DNA of 58,940 nucleotides from a virus (IMGVR_UViG_3300050821_002544); one strand, 5' to 3'; positions 15,940-58,940 are shown, counted from the stretch's first letter. Made by a program: numbers and translations. The notes: generated by a model not told the origin, from the letters alone.

Positions 15940-16662
15940 TTATTTTCGACTCCATACACTATCTCTATAGTGTGATTCATGTGATGCTCTTTTCTTTCTC
16001 GTAATATCTAATTCTTGTAAATCTTTTTCGGATAATTTATTGTTAGAATAGTCTGTTAACATAGAACCCCTCTTGATTGGTATGACCTGAACCAATGGAG
16101 TTCCTGCTTTTAATATTCCAGTATAATTGGGTTCTGTAAAGAAAAATGGAAAATTAATAAATTCAAAATATCCATCACAATCTACCATCCCTGACATACA
16201 TTGAAATCTTTTATCAATACGATTCATCGGTGGAATAAAAAGAACAGAATAATCTTTAGGAACTTTGATTGCCCACCAATTAAGAAATTTCATTGGAGGT
16301 TTAGGTGAAGTAGGATGCGGAATTTTATCTGTTTCTATTTGATTTCTATTATGATTTTCTATCATTGTTCTATAGAACATAGATTTATATGTGACACCTG
16401 ATGCATCATCATTGGTAATAAATTCTACGTCAGCAGCAAGAGGAATGATATATCCAATACACATTGCATCAAGAAAAGGTGCGCAGCGCTTGATAGTACT
16501 ATTTTCCAATAACTCTTTTTTTTCAATTTTTGGAGGAAGAGATTTATACCATTCTGGCATTAGCTTACGGGCTGAATATGGTTCTGGTATTATACCGAAA
16601 TCTTCGGAATGACATAGAAATTCTATCTCAGGAGTCTTTATAACAGACTTCAAATTAAACAT
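15940..16662 (-). CDS. Conserved phage protein often beside 2OG oxygenases (DUF6065-like, tentative)
   Basis: TIKRCAPFLDAM..GYIIPL, KFLNWWAIKVPKDYSVLFIPPMNR, AGTPLVQVIPIKR. Confidence 0.65.
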   Translation of the reverse strand: MFNLKSVIKTPEIEFLCHSEDFGIIPEPYSARKLMPEWYKSLPPKIEKKELLENSTIKRCAPFLDAMCIGYIIPLAADVEFITNDDASGVTYKSMFYRTMIENHNRNQIETDKIPHPTSPKPPMKFLNWWAIKVPKDYSVLFIPPMNRIDKRFQCMSGMVDCDGYFEFINFPFFFTEPNYTGILKAGTPLVQVIPIKRGSMLTDYSNNKLSEKDLQELDITRKKRASHESHYRDSVWSRK

Positions 16663-16708
16663 AATCTACCTCATAACAAATGTATTATCACATAAGAGTA
16701 TGTAGGTG

Positions 16709-18283
16709 TTATTGATTAAGCCATGAGATAGTTGTTGTACCATTTACAACACCACTTCCTACTGTTACAGTTGCCGCCGCACCTACTGAAACAGATTTTT
16801 GTAGTTTAGTTGTAATATTAGAAAATGGAGCAGAACCAGAAGGATTGCCAGTTCCACCAGTTCCAGCACCAGTTCCGGCAGAACCTATAGACCCAGGATT
16901 TCCATTTGCCCCATTTGCACCGGCAGACCCAGGAGAACCAGCATTTCCTCCCACACCAGCAGTTGCTCCCGCACCATTTGCTCCTGCATTTCCAGGAATA
17001 CCAGCAGAACCAGCATTACCTGGAGCACCAGCCCCACCCGATCCTGATCCGCCTCCACCACCACCAGATGCAGCAGAACCACCGGAATCTTGTCCACCAC
17101 CTAATCCACCTGCGCCACCACCCGGATTTCCGGCAGCACCAGCAGTATTACCACCAGATCCAGAACCAGCAGTACCAGGATTTCCGCCATTTCCAGCGGC
17201 ACCACCACCGCCACCACCACCTGTTCCTGCCCCGCCGCCTACACCCGCTCCACCACCTGTTCCGCCTGCGCCACCGCCCGCTCCACCGTTACCATTTGTA
17301 CCTGATGTTCCTGCATTTCCGGCAGTGCCAGGATTTCCTGCATTACCGGCAGCACCACCATTACCTCTTGCTCCACCGGTACCATTAATACCAGGATTTC
17401 CAGGATTTCCTGCTGTTCCTACATTTCCAGGATTACCGGCAGCACCAGCAGAACCAGCACTTCCGCCTACACCACCAGTAAGATTAACTGGCGTAATAAT
17501 TACTACAGAAGCTAATGCAGTTAATGATGTAGGATTACCGGTAACACCAACATTTCCAGGATTTCCTGCTCCCCCACTTTGACCGGTCCATGATGTTGGC
17601 GCTGCGCCACCACCATTTCCTACAGTAGCACCAGAACCAGCAGCACCAACATTTCCCACCGCACCAGCACTTCCAGTGGTACCAGCAGTACCAGGATTGC
17701 CTGCGCCGCCACCGGTTGCGCCACTTCCTACGCCACCAGCAGAACCGGCGACCCCAGGAGTTCCCGCATTTCCAGGATTACCGGAAACAGGACCAACTCC
17801 ACCAAGTCCACCATTTCCTCCAGTTCCATTTATTGCTCCACCACCAGCATTTCCAGGAAATCCTGCTTCTCCGGGAAATCCTGGAAATTGATCGATAGCA
17901 ACCTTTGCGCTTCCGTGACCACCACCGCCTCCACCACCACCACCAGGACGACCAGTATTGCCAGGAGCACCAGGATTTCCTGCACCGCCTGCGGCACCAC
18001 CGTTACCTCTTACGCCATTAGTTCCAGGATTTCCGGCACCACCTGCATTTCCGGCACCACCCGGATTTCCGGCAGCACCAGCATTACCAGCAATGCCCGC
18101 AGGACCAGCAATTCCGTTGAATCCTGGATTACCTGGATTACCTGGACTACCTGTTCCTCCTGCTCCCGCAACAGTAATTTTACGAACACCAAAAGGAATC
18201 GTCCACGTAGAACCGGCATTAAATGTAACGCTTCCCGCTTGTTTACGAGTAATCTGACGTAGGGCTGTAGCAGCTAAAGGCAT
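16709..18283 (-). CDS. Glycine-rich Gly-X-Y (collagen-/polyglycine-II-like) virion protein
   Basis: Long GNP/GAA/GGA triplet runs framed by WTIPFGVRKITVAGAGG and GTTTISW motifs typical of phage glycine-rich domains. Confidence 0.8.
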   Translation of the reverse strand: MPLAATALRQITRKQAGSVTFNAGSTWTIPFGVRKITVAGAGGTGSPGNPGNPGFNGIAGPAGIAGNAGAAGNPGGAGNAGGAGNPGTNGVRGNGGAAGGAGNPGAPGNTGRPGGGGGGGGGHGSAKVAIDQFPGFPGEAGFPGNAGGGAINGTGGNGGLGGVGPVSGNPGNAGTPGVAGSAGGVGSGATGGGAGNPGTAGTTGSAGAVGNVGAAGSGATVGNGGGAAPTSWTGQSGGAGNPGNVGVTGNPTSLTALASVVIITPVNLTGGVGGSAGSAGAAGNPGNVGTAGNPGNPGINGTGGARGNGGAAGNAGNPGTAGNAGTSGTNGNGGAGGGAGGTGGGAGVGGGAGTGGGGGGGAAGNGGNPGTAGSGSGGNTAGAAGNPGGGAGGLGGGQDSGGSAASGGGGGGSGSGGAGAPGNAGSAGIPGNAGANGAGATAGVGGNAGSPGSAGANGANGNPGSIGSAGTGAGTGGTGNPSGSAPFSNITTKLQKSVSVGAAATVTVGSGVVNGTTTISWLNQ

Positions 18284-46845: not shown

Positions 46846-47079
46846 TCATACAGGTAACTTCGAACCTTTAGTAATTTTTAAACATCTTAAATCAGTAGCT
46901 TCTTCTTCAATCTTACATTTAAGAGATTGATTCAAGAGTGTTGCGGCGACTTCTAATTCTAAATCAGTCTCTTCACAATAATCAATAATTGCTTCCATAT
47001 ATGAAATTTTCTGTGATTCTGCGCGTTGTTCTATTTTCAAAGAAAACACATTTTTTTCATCTCTTGTTGACATTAGCAT
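46846..47079 (-). CDS. gp33: Late transcription co-activator gp33
   Basis: FS..IE...ISYMEAIIDYCEE...E.E....L...LK.KIEEEA..L..L....LPV; near gp32 as in T4. Confidence 0.85.
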   Translation of the reverse strand: MLMSTRDEKNVFSLKIEQRAESQKISYMEAIIDYCEETDLELEVAATLLNQSLKCKIEEEATDLRCLKITKGSKLPV

Positions 47080-48140
47080 TACGATCCAAATATATTGTTT
47101 AGTTGACGATTTACTCTAATGAACTTGGCACGTCGATGAAAATCTTTGATAGAATCAGCGCCGATATACGTAGCAGCAGAACGCAATCCACCTAAAAAAG
47201 TCTTTATTGTATTATCAATAGAACCTTTGAAAGGTATTATTACTTCTTTTCCTTCGGATGCACGATAGTCTGCAACTCCACCATTATGGATATCCTGTGC
47301 AGTTCTACTTGCCATGCCATAAAATTTTCTATGGGTGTTTAGACTTTGGGTATGAACATACGCAGTACCATTCGCATCACAAGGCACGCCACCACCTTCA
47401 TAGTGACCAGCAAAATATCCACCTATCATTACCATGTCTGCACCGGCAGCAAAAGCTTTGGCAGCGTCACCAGGACAGGTAATACCACCATCGGCAACAA
47501 TCATACCTCCTGCATCCTTCGCAGCTTGAGCGCATTCTATGACTGCCGAAAGTTGAGGATATCCTACACCAGTAAGTTTTCTTGTTGTACAGACAGAACC
47601 AGGACCAATACCAATCTTTACGATATCAGCGCCAGCCTCTAGAAGTCTGTCTGTTTGTTCTGGTGTTACTACATTTCCTACCATAAGAATATATGATGGA
47701 AATTTTGAACTAAACTTTTCTACAAATTCTTCGAATTGACTAGTATATCCATTTGCCACATCAATACAAATAGTATGAGGTCTATGTTCTTCTAACAACA
47801 TTAAATCAAATGCTTCAAATTTTTTGAAATCTTTTTCATTTGAGCCCATAGAATATATGACTAAACTACTATGATCTTTATTTTCAAAATCTGCATAGAA
47901 ATCAACCAATTCTTCTACAGTATAATGTTTAGATAATGCCGTCATACAACCATGTTTTGCAAGTGCATCTGCAATTTCGAAGGTTCCTACTCCATCCATA
48001 TTAGCAGCAATGATGGGAATTAGATCAGTATCGAAATAATTAATGTTAAGATCAATTTGACTTCTAGAAGAAATATTAGAACGAGAAGGAGTCAACAATA
48101 CATCAGAATAATCTAGTTTCACTTCATTATCAATATTCAT
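47079..48140 (-). CDS. guaC: GMP reductase
   Basis: KLDYSDVLL.P.RS, ANMDGVGTF, CIDVANGY, VKIGIGPGSVCTTR..TGVGYPQLSA, KFYGMAS, YRASEGK. Confidence 0.95.
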   Translation of the reverse strand: MNIDNEVKLDYSDVLLTPSRSNISSRSQIDLNINYFDTDLIPIIAANMDGVGTFEIADALAKHGCMTALSKHYTVEELVDFYADFENKDHSSLVIYSMGSNEKDFKKFEAFDLMLLEEHRPHTICIDVANGYTSQFEEFVEKFSSKFPSYILMVGNVVTPEQTDRLLEAGADIVKIGIGPGSVCTTRKLTGVGYPQLSAVIECAQAAKDAGGMIVADGGITCPGDAAKAFAAGADMVMIGGYFAGHYEGGGVPCDANGTAYVHTQSLNTHRKFYGMASRTAQDIHNGGVADYRASEGKEVIIPFKGSIDNTIKTFLGGLRSAATYIGADSIKDFHRRAKFIRVNRQLNNIFGS

Positions 48141-48665: not shown

Positions 48666-48693
48666 ATAAAAAGAGGGTCTTGCGACCCTCTTC
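48666..48693 (-). terminator. Rho-independent terminator downstream of the tmRNA gene
   Basis: AAGAGGGTC-GCAA-GACCCTCTT followed by a U-run on the minus strand. Confidence 0.85.
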
Positions 48694-48990
48694 CCGATCC
48701 GTTCTGTTTACAAGAGGATCAAACTCAGTTTAGGCAGCAAGTGCCTGAACAAACGTGTCATCGTTAGATGCAGTTATAGTTTTGCACTGTCACGGTCGTT
48801 ACATACCGGATTGCCTTCAAGTTATTCTACACAGAGTCGATACCAGTTCAAGCCCATCAGAAGCGTTCTTAGCCACCCATTTATGGTGGACAACTATACC
48901 TCCATGGATAGTCGTAAAAACGCTTGTGGTGGACCTGTCGGGATTCGAACCCGAGTGTTCCGTGCCTTTAGTTAAAGGTTAACAATCATT
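48694..48990 (-). ncRNA. ssrA: Circularly permuted (two-piece) tmRNA; tag (A)ASNDDTFVQALAA
   Basis: Minus strand: T-arm TCGGG-TTCGAAT-CCCGA + CAGGTCC-A-CCA (48954-48927) precedes the 5' arm GGGCTTGAACTGGTATCGAC (from 48855); 7-bp acceptor stem with G3-U70; tag ORF GCA TCT AAC GAT GAC ACG TTT GTT CAG GCA CTT GCT GCC TAA (48771-48730); outer limits approximate. Confidence 0.9.
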
Positions 48991-48998
48991 ATCAATAT

Positions 48999-49691
48999 TT
49001 ATCCTTTCTGAAATACTAGCTTCTTATAGCTAAGAAGTCTCTTACGATTAGACGCAAGAATAGGACTAGAAGCAACCGCAGTCATCACGTTCCCTATATC
49101 AGGTTCAATGAACGAATAGGCTTTTCCTCCCACATGTTCAATATCTGCAATAGCAGTATCCAAACCCTTTTGATCTGGAACACCAATCACTGCAAAATAG
49201 AGTTCATCAAAATTCTTAAAAGTAATTTGATTAAAGCCCATCTTCGCAGCAACATGCGCTGCCTGTACCAATTGATACTCAGGAGAAATATCCTGTCTCA
49301 CAAAGATATAAGAATAGTGTCTCTTCTGTTCTTCCTGAGTGATCTTATACTTGTCAAATACATCAGACACAATCTGAGTGAATTGATTCAATTCATCGAC
49401 TGTTTCCAATGGTGAGAAAAGTTGTGCGGGGTCTTTCTTCTGCATCTTGCAAAACCAATGCAAGGATGACAAAAGATTTCTTACTTTCTGCCAGGGTTCG
49501 TTACCGTTATCAAGTTTGTTCTTTCTTGTAATTGGTGTGAATGCACGGCGAATCAATTGATTCGCCGTAACATCCTTTGGTTGGATACTAACCGCATCCA
49601 TTGCCTTATAGATGCACAGTCGCATAACATCATATGCGGTCGTCTTCTTGGCACGTGCCAAGGTTTTATAATCTTCTCTAAAATTCTTCAT
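48999..49691 (-). CDS. Protein with a C-terminal PTH2-like peptidyl-tRNA hydrolase domain
   Basis: YIFVRQDIS...QLVQAAHVA, VIGVPDQKGL, FIEPDIGN.MTAVA..PI pattern of PTH2-family proteins; N-terminal ~120 aa unassigned. Confidence 0.7.
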   Translation of the reverse strand: MKNFREDYKTLARAKKTTAYDVMRLCIYKAMDAVSIQPKDVTANQLIRRAFTPITRKNKLDNGNEPWQKVRNLLSSLHWFCKMQKKDPAQLFSPLETVDELNQFTQIVSDVFDKYKITQEEQKRHYSYIFVRQDISPEYQLVQAAHVAAKMGFNQITFKNFDELYFAVIGVPDQKGLDTAIADIEHVGGKAYSFIEPDIGNVMTAVASSPILASNRKRLLSYKKLVFQKG

Positions 49692-49790
49692 TTTCGTTCT
49701 CTCCGTTAATATGTAATAGTAATCAATAATCGTCTTGACTATTACACACGGAGGACCGTGTACATAATATAATTTCTACGTGTCAGGCTT

Positions 49791-49871
49791 CTACAAACCT
49801 TCGTATTCATCCCAATGCTTTTCATTTCCTATTGGAATGATAGCAATCATACCAGTTTTTTCGTTCTTCAT
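49791..49871 (-). CDS. 26-codon leader ORF (MKNEKTGMIAIIPIGNEKHWDEYEGL, amber stop), in frame with the PTH2-like gene
   Basis: GGAG SD 7 nt before the ATG; ends at TAG; frame continues through a second TAG to ATG 49691 with no TAA/TGA. Confidence 0.6.
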   Translation of the reverse strand: MKNEKTGMIAIIPIGNEKHWDEYEGL

Positions 49872-49887
49872 AATCATTCTCCAAAAT

Positions 49888-49961
49888 TGGTTCCCTAGAC
49901 AGGAATCGAACCCGCTTACAAGAATTTAGAGTTCCCTGCTAAACCAATCAGCTACTAGGGA
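49888..49961 (-). tRNA. Amber suppressor tRNA, anticodon CUA
   Basis: TCCCTAG/CTAGGGA acceptor, A73, CCA encoded; D-stem GCTG/TAGC; anticodon arm GGGAA-CTCTAAA-TTCTT; T-arm GCGGG-TTCGATT-CCTGT. Confidence 0.88.
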
Positions 49962-49969
49962 ATATTCTC

Positions 49970-49977
49970 TATTTATA
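49970..49977 (-). promoter_or_regulatory. Perfect T4 late promoter TATAAATA upstream of the suppressor tRNA
   Basis: Exact consensus 8 nt upstream of the tRNA 5' end. Confidence 0.75.
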
Positions 49978-51412: not shown

Positions 51413-51805
51413 TTAAATCGCTCTTTCATCTTCACATGAAGCAGGAATACGAATATGCCACGGAGCAGATTCGGCATATTTAACTACTGCCTGTGCATCC
51501 TTGAATGCTTCATTATGCTTCTTATCTACTAACATTACCTGACCATCAGCATATGTGAAAACGGCAGATTCAATCAATGTGCATTGAGTAACAACAATAG
51601 CACTCAACAATACAGATTTAGGAATATTATTCGGTACAGATTCAAGAACACTATTATCAGTATTTTGTTCTCCATCTGTTATAGGCATATTATCAACAAC
51701 CTTAGTTCCTGCTGGAAATGTAATTGTCTTACCATGTTGAATAGGTAACGTAGAAGCACAGCCTGCTAGTACACTCAATCCAATAACTGCAAATAGTTTA
51801 TTCAT
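51413..51805 (-). CDS. Lipoprotein
   Basis: Signal peptide II MNKLFAVIGLSVLAGC with LAGC lipobox. Confidence 0.75.
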   Translation of the reverse strand: MNKLFAVIGLSVLAGCASTLPIQHGKTITFPAGTKVVDNMPITDGEQNTDNSVLESVPNNIPKSVLLSAIVVTQCTLIESAVFTYADGQVMLVDKKHNEAFKDAQAVVKYAESAPWHIRIPASCEDERAI

Positions 51806-52317
51806 AATTTCTTTCTATTCCTCATTTTCTTTAATGACTCTTCTGAGTGCTTTCTTCCAAACATTGGATTGTTTGCACCAATTCTTTTCAACAAATAATC
51901 AGCGTTGCGCATCTTTTCTTTAGATTCATCAGAACGTTTCTTACCAGTATTACCATAATTTGGATTTTCTCTATAACCTTTCTTAGCTGCTTCTGAATAT
52001 CGCCTTCTTGATTCTTCTGTTAGAATCACATTAACAACACCATCACCACCTAAAGTCATATTATATCCGTGTTTATCAACCGTTGATTGACATTCTTGAA
52101 TCCAATATTTCTCTCTTTCAACAGCAAGTTCTTTTGTTAACCCACTATCTAATACGAATAATTCGAAATTATCAGAACCATACTTATCTATAGCTGCCGT
52201 TAAGGCGAACCCTCTTTTATAATGTTCGAACATTCTCATTTCTGGTGACTTTTTAGTCAAACCAACATAACATTTACCATTCACTTTGTTTGTGATCTTA
52301 TACACCGAATAATTCAT
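51802..52317 (-). mobile_element. GIY-YIG (Seg-like) homing endonuclease with NUMOD3 repeats
   Basis: SVYKITNKVNGKCYVGLT, EKYWI, GYNMTLGGDG, GRKHSEESLKKM. Confidence 0.9.
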
Positions 52318-57282: not shown

Positions 57283-57618
57283 ATGCTTCTTGCAACTATC
57301 GCTCTTATTGGCTGTTCTCTTATCATCTTATTGATGGGAGTTGGTATTTTTACTGGTAAACATACATTCACCCGCTATGTTGCATTAGGTTTTGATATGT
57401 TCTGGAATGTAATGACAGGCGGTGGAATTGACGAGACTATTTCTTCACGTGCTGGTGTTGCTGCTATTCAGGGCAAGAAATGGGGAAAGCTTCTAGCATG
57501 GTGTTTAGGCAAGCTAGAAGCTAATCATTGTACCCTTGCTATTGAAGGCGATATAGACAGAGCAAAGGCACTCCTTGTTGCCCTTGCTCCGTATGACTCT
57601 CGTACTAATAAGAATTAA
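57283..57618 (+). CDS. Conserved phage membrane-anchored protein
   Basis: N-terminal TM; D...N...GG.IDETISSRAG...W...L...E.NHC..AIEGD pattern; AGGAG SD. Confidence 0.7.
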   Translation: MLLATIALIGCSLIILLMGVGIFTGKHTFTRYVALGFDMFWNVMTGGGIDETISSRAGVAAIQGKKWGKLLAWCLGKLEANHCTLAIEGDIDRAKALLVALAPYDSRTNKN

Positions 57619-58940
57619 CAATCGCTCTTATATCATCAAGAGATTGTTTACGATAAATCGTTCCGTTTCGATACACAGTCTCTAATGCAGGACTCATTCC
57701 TACTGCTGCCATCCTATTGATATCAGCAATAGTACCAGTGACATAAGTCTGACCAGAACCATAAAGCACCAGACGACCACGTTTTGATGCTTTTGATGCA
57801 TCCGTAAGTGGTTGTTTGAATACATCACGTTCTTCTACTTCTCCAGTCTTAGGATTGCGTACTGTAACAGAAGATGCCTTCATTGCAAATTCCTGAGTAT
57901 CACGATTCATATGTTGAAGCAACGCGCCGCCCATTCCAAATGCAATATTCTCAATAGAATATTTGTGCTGAATAAGATTCGCTATAATTGCCTTGATAGA
58001 ATCTTCGTTAATTCCATCACCCTGAATAATTCTAACATTATTAAGAACTTTATAACCTTCAGCATTCACAGTATGACCAAATTTCTCGTCTAGCAACTCA
58101 GCACAACGAAGAACAACCTTTGAAGGATTACCAGAATCAGGACGAATAACAACAGTCGCACCAGAAGCAATAATCTGATCCTTTAGAGCAGCGCCCCATA
58201 GATTAGTAATTGCATTCCATAGATCATATGAGTCAGATACAATTGCTACGATCTTCCCTGGTTTTGCAAATTGCTTAATCATATTATCATAGGCAGAAAT
58301 CTCATGTGCCTTACCCCATGAGGTAATAGTAGAATGCTCTGCCGCAGGAATAGAAAATCCTGCCATATTACAATTATAATATTTACGTGCATATTTCAAT
58401 GCAACAAGATTGTCTGTTCCCTTAAAATTAATAAGATGTGCTGTTCCACCAATTGCAGAACTTTCAAGAGAAGAAACGCCACGAGAACCAAAGTCATGAA
58501 GTTTGAAGTCAATACCTTCATAACCACCTGTTTTTACCAATGCCTCATAGATAATTTCTCGAATCGAACGAGATATTGTTGCAACCGTAGTAGGGTACCA
58601 AATTGCGCGAAGCAATGCGGTTTCTACATATGTCGTCAACCAGAAACATTTAGGATCGGTATTTCTAATAGTAAGAAGAACATTCTTAACAGGAACAATA
58701 GAACCTTCTTTTACTGCTTTAATTTCAAGAGGCAAAACACCTTGATACGTCAAAAGGATATATTCCCATCCTTCACGATTAAACGGGATTCCATGGAGTG
58801 CGAACATTTCTGCTGCTTCTTCAATATCATCGCGTGTAATAGGTGTCATCAGATGTTCTAGTACATATGCCTGTAAACCATGGAATACTGTTTGATAGTA
58901 TTCTCCACCACGCGATTCGATATAGGATTCTACATATTCA
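57605..58940 (-). CDS. nadV: Nicotinamide phosphoribosyltransferase (5' end beyond the window)
   Basis: YIESRGG...VFHGLQ, LHDFGSRG, GTDN, SIPAAEHST, VSDSYD, VIRPDSG, IQGDGI, FGMGG.LLQ..NRDT..FA.K. Confidence 0.95.
   Translation of the reverse strand, partial: EYVESYIESRGGEYYQTVFHGLQAYVLEHLMTPITRDDIEEAAEMFALHGIPFNREGWEYILLTYQGVLPLEIKAVKEGSIVPVKNVLLTIRNTDPKCFWLTTYVETALLRAIWYPTTVATISRSIREIIYEALVKTGGYEGIDFKLHDFGSRGVSSLESSAIGGTAHLINFKGTDNLVALKYARKYYNCNMAGFSIPAAEHSTITSWGKAHEISAYDNMIKQFAKPGKIVAIVSDSYDLWNAITNLWGAALKDQIIASGATVVIRPDSGNPSKVVLRCAELLDEKFGHTVNAEGYKVLNNVRIIQGDGINEDSIKAIIANLIQHKYSIENIAFGMGGALLQHMNRDTQEFAMKASSVTVRNPKTGEVEERDVFKQPLTDASKASKRGRLVLYGSGQTYVTGTIADINRMAAVGMSPALETVYRNGTIYRKQSLDDIRAIVNSY

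What the first reader, a model, noticed from the sequence alone, without database searches (positions are those of the whole stretch)
48694..48990. Phage-encoded circularly permuted two-piece tmRNA with its own tag peptide
On the minus strand the tRNA-Ala-like 3' end (T-arm, CAGGTCC-A-CCA) comes first. A 71-nt intervening segment (48856-48926) closed by AAGCGTT/AACGCTT pairing follows, then the 5' arm and a tag ORF ASNDDTFVQALAA ending in a ClpXP-type LAA degron. The acceptor stem has the G3-U70 Ala determinant, and TCTGTG/CACGGA can form helix 2 between the pieces. The gene has an ATAAATA late promoter and a terminator. Permuted ssrA is known from Alphaproteobacteria and some Betaproteobacteria and cyanobacteria. 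Phage tmRNAs are uncommon and I do not recall a permuted one. It is hidden under a spurious 75-aa ORF. It hints at the host group (inference) and at phage control of ribosome rescue late in infection.
Basis: partly seen in the sequence, partly recalled or inferred. Interest (0 to 1): 0.9.

Follow-up and report, generated by a model that had tools for sequence, protein, structure and literature searches.

The report
Two-piece tmRNA gene in T4-like phage
An uncultured T4-like phage carries a real split ("two-piece") ribosome-rescue RNA gene, a kind already reported in aquatic phages; the new point is that it sits in a conserved late-expressed block with a stop-codon-reading tRNA and a peptidyl-tRNA-hydrolase-like protein.

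Summary
ARAGORN calls a permuted tmRNA with tag ASNDDTFVQALAA. Rfam tmRNA_permuted (109 bits, cut-off 47) and beta_tmRNA (106 bits, cut-off 84) both match. Eleven homologous tmRNAs from related IMG/VR phage contigs show 27 of 43 base pairs with compensatory changes, an invariant G3-U70, and in-frame tags that all end in LAA.

The context is an uncultured T4-like myophage related to cyanophages and phage Melnitz. The novelty claim fails. Buchholz et al. 2022 (PMC9004378) described Melnitz's two-piece tmRNA, which lies in the same syntenic slot, and counted 53 distinct two-piece tmRNAs in public phage genomes. This is a new member of a known kind. The host hint is weak: relatives flip between the beta and alpha models.

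What is less ordinary is the setting. There is a conserved same-strand block: late-promoter box, tRNA(CUA), double-amber leader, PTH2-fold protein, late-promoter box, tmRNA. The PTH2-like family is linked to amber-suppressor tRNAs in 44 of 63 phage lineages and to a tmRNA in 16 of 63. Earlier notes of this scan on other genomes reported the PTH2-like and tRNA(CUA) pairing. A functional link to the tmRNA is inferred, not shown.

The parts
48996..49002 (-). Late-promoter-like box ATAAATA, 8 nt upstream of the tmRNA 5' end. It overlaps the stop codon of the upstream gene.
   Evidence: One search gives the coordinates. An (A/C)TAAATA or CTATATA box at the same distance is present in 10 of 12 related tmRNA loci. 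The heptamer is depleted in the window, 10 found against 33.8 expected. The promoter role is inferred from T4-type late promoters.
48927..48987 (-). Acceptor piece. It holds the 5' strands of the long inter-piece helix (48987-48983, 48978-48976, 48964-48959), the T arm 48954-48938, the acceptor 3' strand 48937-48931, discriminator A and the encoded CCA ending at 48927.
   Evidence: Rfam alignment, RNAalifold pairs with covariation, motif coordinates.
48856..48926 (-). Intervening segment of 71 nt, presumed to be removed. It has a closing stem and an internal hairpin.
   Evidence: Its length varies from about 3 to about 100 nt among relatives while the flanks are conserved. Where present, the closing stem keeps pairing through compensatory changes.
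48667..48855 (-). Coding piece. It holds the acceptor 5' strand 48855-48849 (G3 at 48853), the D-loop-like segment with the invariant UCGA core, the helix-2 3' strand 48835-48830, the closing strands 48819-48809, a PK1-like region, the tag ORF, a hairpin 48720-48696 and the terminator.
   Evidence: Rfam beta_tmRNA full-length match 49042-48667.
48730..48771 (-). Tag reading frame: GCA resume codon, 13 codons (ASNDDTFVQALAA), then TAA.
   Evidence: All 12 homologues have in-frame tags of 13-17 aa ending in LAA.
48671..48693 (-). Intrinsic terminator hairpin (12 bp, GCAA loop) followed by UUUUUAUUU.
   Evidence: the whole 66-nt 3' region, with both hairpins, folds at -24 kcal/mol, z -3.8. It aligns to the terminal hairpin of the Rfam beta_tmRNA model. 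The simple terminator scan did not list it.
48999..49691 (-). Gene for a 230-aa protein (P0001): a helical N-terminal domain plus a C-terminal PTH2-fold domain (residues about 116-226), directly upstream of the tmRNA.
   Evidence: No Pfam or PHROG hit. 81 homologues. AlphaFold pLDDT 92.6. The top 14 PDB hits and all 30 Swiss-Prot hits shown are Pth2, PTRHD1 or Bit1. The homologue is directly followed by a permuted tmRNA in L001-L012, L020 and L022.
49746..49877 (-). Leader region. A 28-codon ORF (49877-49791) ends in TAG. Four codons (KPDT) follow, then a second TAG (49778-49776) and a conserved hairpin (49761-49746).
   Evidence: The roughly 60-nt block is conserved in L003-L006. The PDT-TAG motif recurs before short-form PTH2-like genes in other phages. 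Its function is unknown.
49888..49961 (-). tRNA with anticodon CUA (amber-suppressor type) and an encoded CCA.
   Evidence: ARAGORN, Rfam tRNA 51.8 bits, canonical CUCUAAA anticodon loop conserved in relatives.
49970..49977 (-). Perfect T4-type late-promoter box TATAAATA, 8 nt upstream of the tRNA(CUA).
   Evidence: A CTAAATA box lies in the same place in L001 and L003-L006.

Best explanation
This is a functional, circularly permuted ssrA gene of an uncultured T4-like myophage.

Proposed mechanism:
1. A late-type promoter box 8 nt upstream starts a precursor of roughly 320 nt that ends at an intrinsic terminator.
2. The precursor folds so that 48937-48931 pairs with 48855-48849 into a tRNA-Ala-like acceptor stem with G3-U70.
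3. Host tRNA-processing enzymes cut 5' of G48855 (RNase P type) and trim to the encoded CCA at 48927. This removes the 71-nt intervening segment.
4. That leaves an acceptor piece of about 61 nt and a coding piece of about 190 nt, held together by the long inter-piece helix.
5. Host AlaRS charges the RNA, and host SmpB and EF-Tu bring it to ribosomes stalled on broken or stop-less mRNA.
6. Translation resumes at GCA 48771 and appends ASNDDTFVQALAA. The LAA end sends the product to host ClpXP-type proteases, and the ribosome is released.

The benefit to the phage is to keep ribosomes available late in infection.

Shown here: the gene anatomy, family membership by covariance models, purifying selection on structure and tag across phage relatives, the phage context, and promoter-box and terminator conservation.

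Inferred: processing sites, charging, SmpB dependence, proteolysis, timing and benefit.
For: - ARAGORN calls a permuted tmRNA with its tag.
- Rfam RF04321 scores 109.3 bits (cut-off 47) and RF01850 scores 106.4 bits (cut-off 84), both as full-length matches.
- Eleven homologous tmRNAs in IMG/VR phage contigs pass the Rfam cut-offs.
- 27 of 43 consensus pairs have compensatory changes. Acceptor positions 4-6 vary while G3-U70 is invariant. 94% of cells are paired, against 28-45% with slid partners and at most 79% when shuffled.
- All 12 tags are in frame, 13-17 aa long and end in LAA.
- The late-type box lies at a fixed distance in 10 of 12 loci, and the motif is otherwise depleted. The terminator is confirmed.
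- T4-like context: gp32, baseplate, tail sheath and gp33 genes; gp32 is about 50% identical to cyanophage and Melnitz gp32.
- Melnitz has a two-piece tmRNA in the same slot, between the PDDEXK nuclease and the gp33/gp32 genes.
- There is no SmpB gene in five related contigs, one of them 98% complete, so host SmpB is needed.
Against: The late-promoter reading rests on a 7-of-8 match to the T4 consensus and on knowledge of T4-type phages. The simple terminator scan did not list the hairpin. Whether the host's AlaRS, SmpB and ClpXP accept this RNA and tag is unknown, because the host is unknown. The window covers only about 59 kb, so a phage SmpB elsewhere in this particular genome is not excluded.
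Confidence: 0.88

Rival explanations
1. The RNA is the same, but its main job is specific. It is the rescue arm of a late-expressed cassette made of tRNA(CUA), a double-amber leader, a PTH2-fold hydrolase and the tmRNA. The phage's amber suppressor makes ribosomes read through UAG stops on host and phage mRNAs. Some ribosomes then run to the 3' ends or drop off. The tmRNA frees and tags those complexes, and the PTH2-like enzyme recycles peptidyl-tRNA.
For: The order and strand are conserved in the window and in L001-L012, L020 and L022. The P0001 family has a tRNA(CUA) within 3 kb in 44 of 63 dereplicated lineages, always on the same strand, and 51 of 180 nearby tRNAs are CUA. A tmRNA lies within 3 kb in 16 of 63 lineages. 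These include an unrelated one-piece tmRNA directly after the tRNA(CUA) in L037 and permuted ones in jumbo-phage loci L038, L048, L052 and L057. By comparison, only 2.3% of phage genomes carry any tmRNA (PMC9004378). Late-type boxes precede both RNA genes. The PTH2 fold is confirmed.
Against: Gene neighbourhood is the only evidence. RNA genes and translation genes cluster in large phages for other reasons. The window uses the standard code, and each of its six TAG-ended genes has a backup stop 3-21 codons downstream, so read-through would rarely reach a 3' end on phage mRNAs. L013-L019 have the protein and the tRNA(CUA) but no tmRNA nearby. Melnitz has the tmRNA without the other two.
Confidence: 0.2
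2. It is a counter-defence tool. Host abortive-infection nucleases that cut mRNA or tRNA leave stalled ribosomes and peptidyl-tRNA. The phage brings extra tmRNA, and a PTH2-like hydrolase, to keep translation going under that attack.
For: It is co-located with a peptidyl-tRNA-hydrolase-fold protein. It has late expression signals. tmRNAs recur next to tRNA-maintenance genes in large phages, as in earlier scan note e1-5325978 (not checked here).
Against: No defence or anti-defence gene was identified nearby. There is no experimental link. This is pure inference from established knowledge that mRNA cleavage creates non-stop complexes.
Confidence: 0.1
3. It is a decoy that inhibits host trans-translation by titrating SmpB, like the TLD-only RNA of mycobacteriophage DS6A, and does not act as a working tmRNA.
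For: DS6A-type RNAs exist and inhibit tmRNA (PMC4131195; PMC11915505). No phage SmpB was found in relatives.
Against: The full mRNA-like domain is kept. The resume-codon context, the in-frame tags and the LAA ends are conserved in all 12 relatives, with indels only in multiples of three. A decoy would not need any of this.
Confidence: 0.04
4. It is a non-functional remnant of host DNA: an integration-site fragment or a recent accidental pick-up.
For: Prophages often carry ssrA fragments (PMC9004378).
Against: The gene is complete. It is conserved with compensatory changes across phages whose neighbouring protein is only 34-47% identical. It has its own promoter box and terminator. The genome is T4-like and no integrase was seen in the window. 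No near-identical bacterial sequence was found in 401 sampled Pseudomonadota genomes.
Confidence: 0.02

Closest known systems
Two-piece tmRNA of Methylophilales phage Melnitz and related aquatic T4-like phages (Kyanoviridae; Buchholz et al. 2022, PMC9004378)
   Same: It is a permuted ssrA in a T4-like myophage. It lies in the same genomic slot, downstream of an orthologous PDDEXK nuclease (35% identity) and upstream of gp33 and gp32. It passes Rfam tmRNA_permuted (113 bits in Melnitz, 109 here). The tag ends in LAA.
   Different: Melnitz scores as alpha type (106.7 bits), carries a glutamine riboswitch at its 3' end and was assigned an early promoter. The window's copy scores as beta type, has no riboswitch hit and has a late-type box. 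It is flanked by a PTH2-fold gene and a tRNA(CUA), which Melnitz lacks. No DNA-level similarity was found to any INPHARED phage.
Betaproteobacterial two-piece tmRNA (Rfam RF01850; Sharkady and Williams 2004, cited in PMC9004378)
   Same: This is the best-scoring clan model, a full-length match of 106.4 bits against a cut-off of 84. The match covers the permuted order, the inter-piece helix, the hairpin after the tag and the terminal hairpin. The tag has the proteobacterial style, A-N-D/E at the start and ALAA at the end.
   Different: The gene is in a phage. There is an extra Ser codon after the resume codon. The intervening segment is 71 nt where the model expects about 12 nt. Close phage relatives score best on the alpha model instead, so descent from a betaproteobacterial gene is not established.
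Caulobacter two-piece tmRNA (Keiler, Shapiro and Williams 2000, cited in PMC9004378 and PMC11915505)
   Same: The gene form is the same. The precursor is cut by tRNA-processing enzymes into two base-paired pieces. This is the only experimentally demonstrated mechanism for this architecture.
   Different: It is a cellular gene. Processing has not been shown for any member of this phage clade.
One-piece phage tmRNAs (mycobacteriophage Bxz1 group, Bacillus phage G) and the TLD-only RNA of DS6A (PMC4131195)
   Same: They are phage-encoded tmRNA-family RNAs without a phage SmpB.
   Different: Those are unpermuted, or lack a tag frame in the case of DS6A.
Pth2 / PTRHD1 peptidyl-tRNA hydrolases (PDB 2zv3, 1q7s, 1wn2, 1xty) and orphan amber-suppressor tRNAs of large phages such as XacN1 (PMC5852040)
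   Same: The neighbouring protein has the PTH2 fold (TM about 0.7 by target). It lies next to a tRNA(CUA), as in many large phages. The XacN1 authors could not find targets for that phage's CUA tRNAs.
   Different: There is no Pfam PF01981 match. This version has an extra 120-aa helical N-terminal domain and no in-frame TAG inside the gene, unlike the short forms. A tmRNA follows it directly.

Membership tests
tmRNA, permuted (two-piece) form | Covariance-model match above the curated cut-off | tested here: met
   RF04321 scores 109.3 bits (cut-off 47) and RF01850 scores 106.4 bits (cut-off 84), both full length. ARAGORN calls tmRNA*.
tmRNA, permuted (two-piece) form | tRNA-Ala-like domain: 7-bp acceptor stem with G3-U70, discriminator A, CCA, and a T arm with a GGUUCGAAUCC loop | tested here: met
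   G3-U70 is invariant, and positions 4-6 covary in 12 sequences.
tmRNA, permuted (two-piece) form | Gene order permuted: the acceptor 3' half and CCA lie upstream of the acceptor 5' half and the tag frame, with an intervening segment between them | tested here: met
   CCA ends at 48927 and G1 of the acceptor 5' strand is at 48855, with 71 nt between them.
tmRNA, permuted (two-piece) form | Tag reading frame with an alanine resume codon, a hydrophobic C-terminal degron and a stop codon | tested here: met
   GCA resume codon, ASNDDTFVQALAA, then TAA. All 12 relatives are in frame and end in LAA.
tmRNA, permuted (two-piece) form | Pseudoknot PK1 upstream of the resume codon | tested here: inconclusive
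   A hairpin at 48807-48790 plus a 3-bp loop-to-downstream pairing (48802-48800 with 48786-48784) that shows covariation. The full pseudoknot was not modelled.
tmRNA, permuted (two-piece) form | Precursor processed into two RNA pieces | not testable with these tools
tmRNA, permuted (two-piece) form | Alanylation, SmpB binding and trans-translation activity | not testable with these tools
   Biochemical. No SmpB gene (PF01668) in five related phage contigs, so host SmpB would be needed.
Betaproteobacterial lineage of two-piece tmRNA | Consistently best match to the beta model across the phage clade | tested here: not met
   The window, L001, L004, L006-L008, L011, L020 and L022 score best on beta. 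L003, L005 and L009/L010 score best on alpha.
PTH2 peptidyl-tRNA hydrolase (for the neighbouring protein P0001) | PTH2 fold | tested here: met
   Model pLDDT 92.6. The top 14 PDB hits are Pth2 or Bit1 structures with TM 0.50-0.74 by target (0.65-0.74 for all but one NMR model). All 30 Swiss-Prot hits shown are Pth2 or PTRHD1.
PTH2 peptidyl-tRNA hydrolase (for the neighbouring protein P0001) | Sequence-profile match (Pfam PF01981) or a PDB sequence match | tested here: not met
   No Pfam hit at E <= 0.01. No Pth2 among the sequence or profile hits in the PDB.
PTH2 peptidyl-tRNA hydrolase (for the neighbouring protein P0001) | Catalytic residues and hydrolase activity | not tested
   The family-invariant residues R132, D134, Q140, Q143, H146, E196, D198 and T204 resemble Pth2 motifs by eye only. 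They were not mapped residue by residue.

The most novel reading that the evidence does not exclude
The tmRNA is one arm of a conserved, late-transcribed phage cassette: amber-suppressor tRNA, a leader ORF ending in two UAG codons, a PTH2-fold hydrolase and the tmRNA. The parts work as a unit. The suppressor causes deliberate UAG read-through, the double-amber leader senses or gates it, and the hydrolase and tmRNA clear the resulting peptidyl-tRNAs and stalled ribosomes. This would give both the orphan suppressor tRNAs and the tmRNAs of large phages a joint function that I did not find described in the searchable literature.
Probability: 0.2. Interest if true: 0.75.

Novelty: new member of a known kind. 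Interest (0 to 1): 0.4.

Why it matters
On its own, the gene adds one more divergent lineage to the known set of phage two-piece tmRNAs. At least 12 related contigs carry it, and no cultured phage in INPHARED has a similar sequence. It also shows that gene callers hide it under a spurious 75-aa ORF.

The more useful point is the context. Phage tmRNAs and phage amber-suppressor tRNAs both lack an established role. Here, and in about a dozen related phages, they sit on either side of a peptidyl-tRNA-hydrolase-like gene, and each RNA gene is preceded by a late-promoter box. That gives a compact three-part cassette that can be cloned and tested in a laboratory host. The test would ask whether read-through, peptidyl-tRNA recycling and ribosome rescue are functionally coupled during late infection.

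Tried and rejected
- DNA similarity to cultured or INPHARED phages: none for the tmRNA region (blastn) or for the 19-kb flank (megablast).
- Exact 26-nt TLD pattern in IMG/VR: no match.
- Host inference by a degenerate TLD pattern in genome contigs: 120 or more hits spread over many phyla, so it does not discriminate.
- Host inference by BLAST of the tmRNA against 401 sampled Pseudomonadota genomes: only T-arm-sized matches.
- Whole genome of the window: not held.
- Environment of the source contig: not given.
- TAG recoding of this phage: rejected. Coding density is 97% under the standard code, and stops are TAA 42, TGA 11 and TAG 6.
- Programmed read-through fusions at TAG-ended genes: rejected. 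Backup stops lie 3-21 codons downstream, and no convincing TAG-split gene other than the leader before P0001 was found.
- Amber gate inside P0001: rejected. There is no in-frame TAG in it or in its full-length relatives.
- A leader-P0001 fusion by read-through is possible in the window and in L003, but it is broken by TGA in L005 and L006, so it is not conserved.
- 77-aa ORF downstream of the tmRNA as gp33: rejected. gp33 is the ORF at 46846-47079.
- SmpB in relatives: none.
- Glutamine riboswitch as in Melnitz: no Rfam hit in the window.
- P0001 by sequence: no Pfam, PHROG or PDB match.
- The sigma-70 and terminator scan added nothing useful.

Full report

Yes.

- T arm at 48954-48938.
- Acceptor 3' strand CAGGTCC at 48937-48931, followed by ACCA ending at 48927.
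- A 71-nt intervening segment at 48926-48856, closed by AAGCGTT and AACGCTT.
- Acceptor 5' strand GGGCTTG at 48855-48849. This gives seven pairs, with G3-U70 third.
- CACGGA (48964-48959) pairing with TCTGTG (48835-48830).
- A tag frame from GCA at 48771 to TAA at 48730 that reads ASNDDTFVQALAA.

ARAGORN calls a permuted tmRNA with exactly this tag. Rfam's tmRNA_permuted model matches at 109.3 bits against a cut-off of 47. The beta_tmRNA model matches over its full length at 106.4 bits against a cut-off of 84. The intervening segment folds into a closed structure (-24.7 kcal/mol, z -3.9). The 3' end is a 12-bp GC-rich hairpin followed by a U run. The plus-strand 75-aa ORF that covers the gene exists and has no support.

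**2. Evidence from relatives**

The protein gene directly upstream (P0001, 48999-49691) was used to fetch related phage loci from IMG/VR. In all of the closest loci (L001-L012, L020, L022), a permuted tmRNA follows the homologue directly. ARAGORN finds it in most of them. Rfam finds it in the rest and in every one of these loci that was scanned (L012 was checked with ARAGORN only).

An alignment of 12 of these tmRNAs was made (A2). RNAalifold recovers the inter-piece helix, the T arm, the acceptor stem and the stem that closes the intervening segment. Of 43 pairs, 27 have compensatory changes. In my own count, 94% of pair cells are standard pairs, against 28-45% when partners are slid by 1-3 columns and at most 79% in 500 column shuffles. 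Acceptor positions 4-6 change in a compensatory way, while G3-U70 never changes.

The intervening segment varies from about 3 nt (L007, L020) to about 100 nt, while both flanks stay conserved. This fits a spacer that is discarded. All 12 tag frames are intact, 13-17 codons long, and end in LAA. These are the marks of a gene under selection both as an RNA and as a short message.

**3. What genome is it?**

The window encodes the following:

- gp32.
- A gp33-type late-transcription coactivator.
- Baseplate wedge and hub proteins.
- A tail sheath stabiliser and tail fibres.
- A PDDEXK nuclease and a homing endonuclease.
- GMP reductase/IMPDH and NAMPT.

Its gp32 is about 47-59% identical to those of marine cyanophages and of Methylophilales phage Melnitz. 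No cultured phage is similar at the DNA level. The code is standard: coding density is 97%, and stops are TAA 42, TGA 11 and TAG 6. So this is an uncultured T4-like myophage of the aquatic Kyanoviridae-like group. The contig it comes from is at least 138 kb long.

**4. Is it new?**

No, not as a kind. Buchholz et al. 2022 (PMC9004378) described a two-piece tmRNA in Melnitz. They counted 133 distinct tmRNAs in 18,146 phage genomes. ARAGORN called 53 of these two-piece, and 50 of those came from aquatic phages. In 2014 only one-piece phage tmRNAs were listed (PMC4131195).

I fetched the Melnitz locus. Its tmRNA lies between an orthologous PDDEXK nuclease (35% identity) and gp33/gp59/gp32. This is the same slot as in the window. 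The differences are these:

- Melnitz scores as alpha type and carries a glutamine riboswitch at its 3' end. The window's copy scores as beta type and has no riboswitch hit.
- The window's copy has a late-type promoter box.
- The window's copy has different neighbours.

**5. The host hint**

Within this phage clade the best clan model flips between beta and alpha. The Melnitz precedent shows a mismatch between tmRNA type and host. A degenerate pattern scan of bacterial genomes did not discriminate. BLAST against 401 sampled Pseudomonadota genomes gave only T-arm-sized hits. The proteobacterial style of the tag (A-N-D/E at the start, ALAA at the end) is the only hint, and it is weak.

**6. Expression signals**

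ATAAATA lies at 49002-48996, 8 nt upstream of the first base of the Rfam match. Ten of the 12 related loci have an (A/C)TAAATA or CTATATA box at the same distance. The heptamer is three-fold depleted in the window, 10 found against 33.8 +/- 5 expected. That depletion is what one expects of a motif that acts as a signal.

A perfect TATAAATA lies 8 nt upstream of the tRNA(CUA) gene. CTAAATA boxes lie at the same place in relatives. That these are gp55-type late promoters is inferred from T4-type phages. Buchholz et al. used TATAAAT as the late motif. From my own memory, CTAAATA is the cyanophage variant; I did not check this.

**7. Mechanism**

The best-supported reading is the standard one for two-piece tmRNA (Keiler et al. 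2000, as cited):

1. A precursor is transcribed.
2. tRNA-processing enzymes cut it 5' of G48855 and trim it to the encoded CCA.
3. The two pieces stay paired through the long helix.
4. AlaRS charges the RNA through G3-U70.
5. SmpB and EF-Tu deliver it to stalled ribosomes.
6. The tag is added and the product is degraded through its LAA end.

No SmpB gene was found in five related contigs, one of them 98% complete. The phage RNA must therefore use host SmpB. Processing, charging and tagging are all inferred.

**8. The neighbourhood is the unusual part**

P0001 has no Pfam, PHROG or PDB sequence match. With an alignment of 51 homologues it folds at pLDDT 92.6. Residues about 116-226 have the Pth2/PTRHD1 peptidyl-tRNA hydrolase fold. 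The top 14 PDB hits and all 30 Swiss-Prot hits shown belong to that family.

About 200 nt upstream of P0001 lies a tRNA with anticodon CUA. I dereplicated the 80 IMG/VR loci that encode a relative of P0001 into 63 lineages at 90% identity. The counts are:

- 44 lineages have a tRNA(CUA) within 3 kb, always on the same strand, at a median distance of 526 nt.
- In 18 lineages the tRNA(CUA) is the only tRNA nearby.
- 51 of 180 neighbouring tRNAs are CUA.
- 16 of 63 lineages have a tmRNA within 3 kb. These include an unrelated one-piece tmRNA directly after the tRNA(CUA) in L037 and permuted ones in jumbo-phage loci L038, L048, L052 and L057.

By comparison, only 2.3% of phage genomes carry any tmRNA.

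Earlier notes of this scan on other genomes reported the PTH2-like and tRNA(CUA) pairing. They also reported that the short PTH2-like genes start with an in-frame TAG. I reproduced that pattern: 41 of 51 short-form loci have a start codon followed within a few codons by TAG.

In the window the long-form gene is not gated. Instead, a 28-codon leader ORF ends in TAG, is followed by the codons for KPDT and a second TAG, and then by a conserved hairpin. This roughly 60-nt block is conserved in L003-L006. The PDT-TAG motif recurs in the short forms of unrelated phages.

In the papers I could search, I found no description linking these elements. The stop-codon-recoding preprint does not mention peptidyl-tRNA hydrolase. 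The XacN1 authors could not find targets for that phage's CUA tRNAs.

**9. What the cassette may mean**

The conserved order and the shared late-type boxes suggest co-expression. One reading is that the tmRNA and the hydrolase clear up after amber read-through. This rests on neighbourhood alone.

Three observations argue against a strict dependence:

- The phage's own TAG-ended genes have backup stops 3-21 codons downstream.
- Some relatives (L013-L019) lack the tmRNA.
- Melnitz has the tmRNA without the other two parts.

I give the cassette reading about 0.2.

**10. Verdict**

The claim that a permuted phage tmRNA is unheard of is wrong, so the finding is a new member of a known kind and of moderate interest. 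Its most useful product is a compact, testable three-part cassette.

Noticed in passing
window 49888-49961 (-), with TATAAATA at 49977-49970: An amber-suppressor-type tRNA (anticodon CUA, encoded CCA) in a phage that uses the standard code. A perfect T4-type late-promoter box lies 8 nt upstream of it. The same tRNA lies upstream of the P0001 homologue in related contigs.
   Followed up: partly
window 48999-49691 (-): A 230-aa protein with no Pfam or PHROG match. Its C-terminal half has the Pth2/PTRHD1 peptidyl-tRNA hydrolase fold. The family is linked to tRNA(CUA) in 44 of 63 phage lineages and to a tmRNA in 16 of 63.
   Followed up: yes
window 49746-49877 (-): A 28-codon leader ORF ends in TAG, then four codons (KPDT), a second TAG and a hairpin. 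The roughly 60-nt block is conserved in L003-L006. The PDT-TAG motif recurs at the start of short PTH2-like genes in unrelated phages. It may be a read-through sensor or gate.
   Followed up: partly
whole window: The heptamer ATAAATA is about three-fold depleted (10 found, 33.8 expected from shuffles). Minus-strand copies lie before the tmRNA, before the tRNA(CUA) and near tail-fibre and baseplate genes (18658, 21116, 28027).
   Followed up: partly
L037 3001-4309: In an unrelated 136-kb phage contig, the order is short PTH2-like gene, tRNA(CUA), then an ordinary one-piece tmRNA (156 bits), all within 1.3 kb. This is the same three parts with a different tmRNA form.
   Followed up: partly
L035 212-696 and L051 924-1411; L056 4871-4955 and L061 5435-5516: GOLLD RNA (about 195 bits) and wcaG RNA motifs lie within 3 kb of PTH2-like genes in large-phage contigs.
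   Followed up: no
window 16001-18000: A local G+C jump to 0.46 (against about 0.37 elsewhere) with a strong negative GC skew. It lies inside the 524-aa ORF 16709-18283, which has no PHROG match.
   Followed up: no
window 51802-52317 (-), 47079-48140 (-), 57605-58849 (-): A GIY-YIG/HNH-type homing endonuclease gene, a GMP reductase/IMPDH-family gene and a nicotinamide phosphoribosyltransferase gene: ordinary auxiliary genes of aquatic T4-like phages.
   Followed up: no
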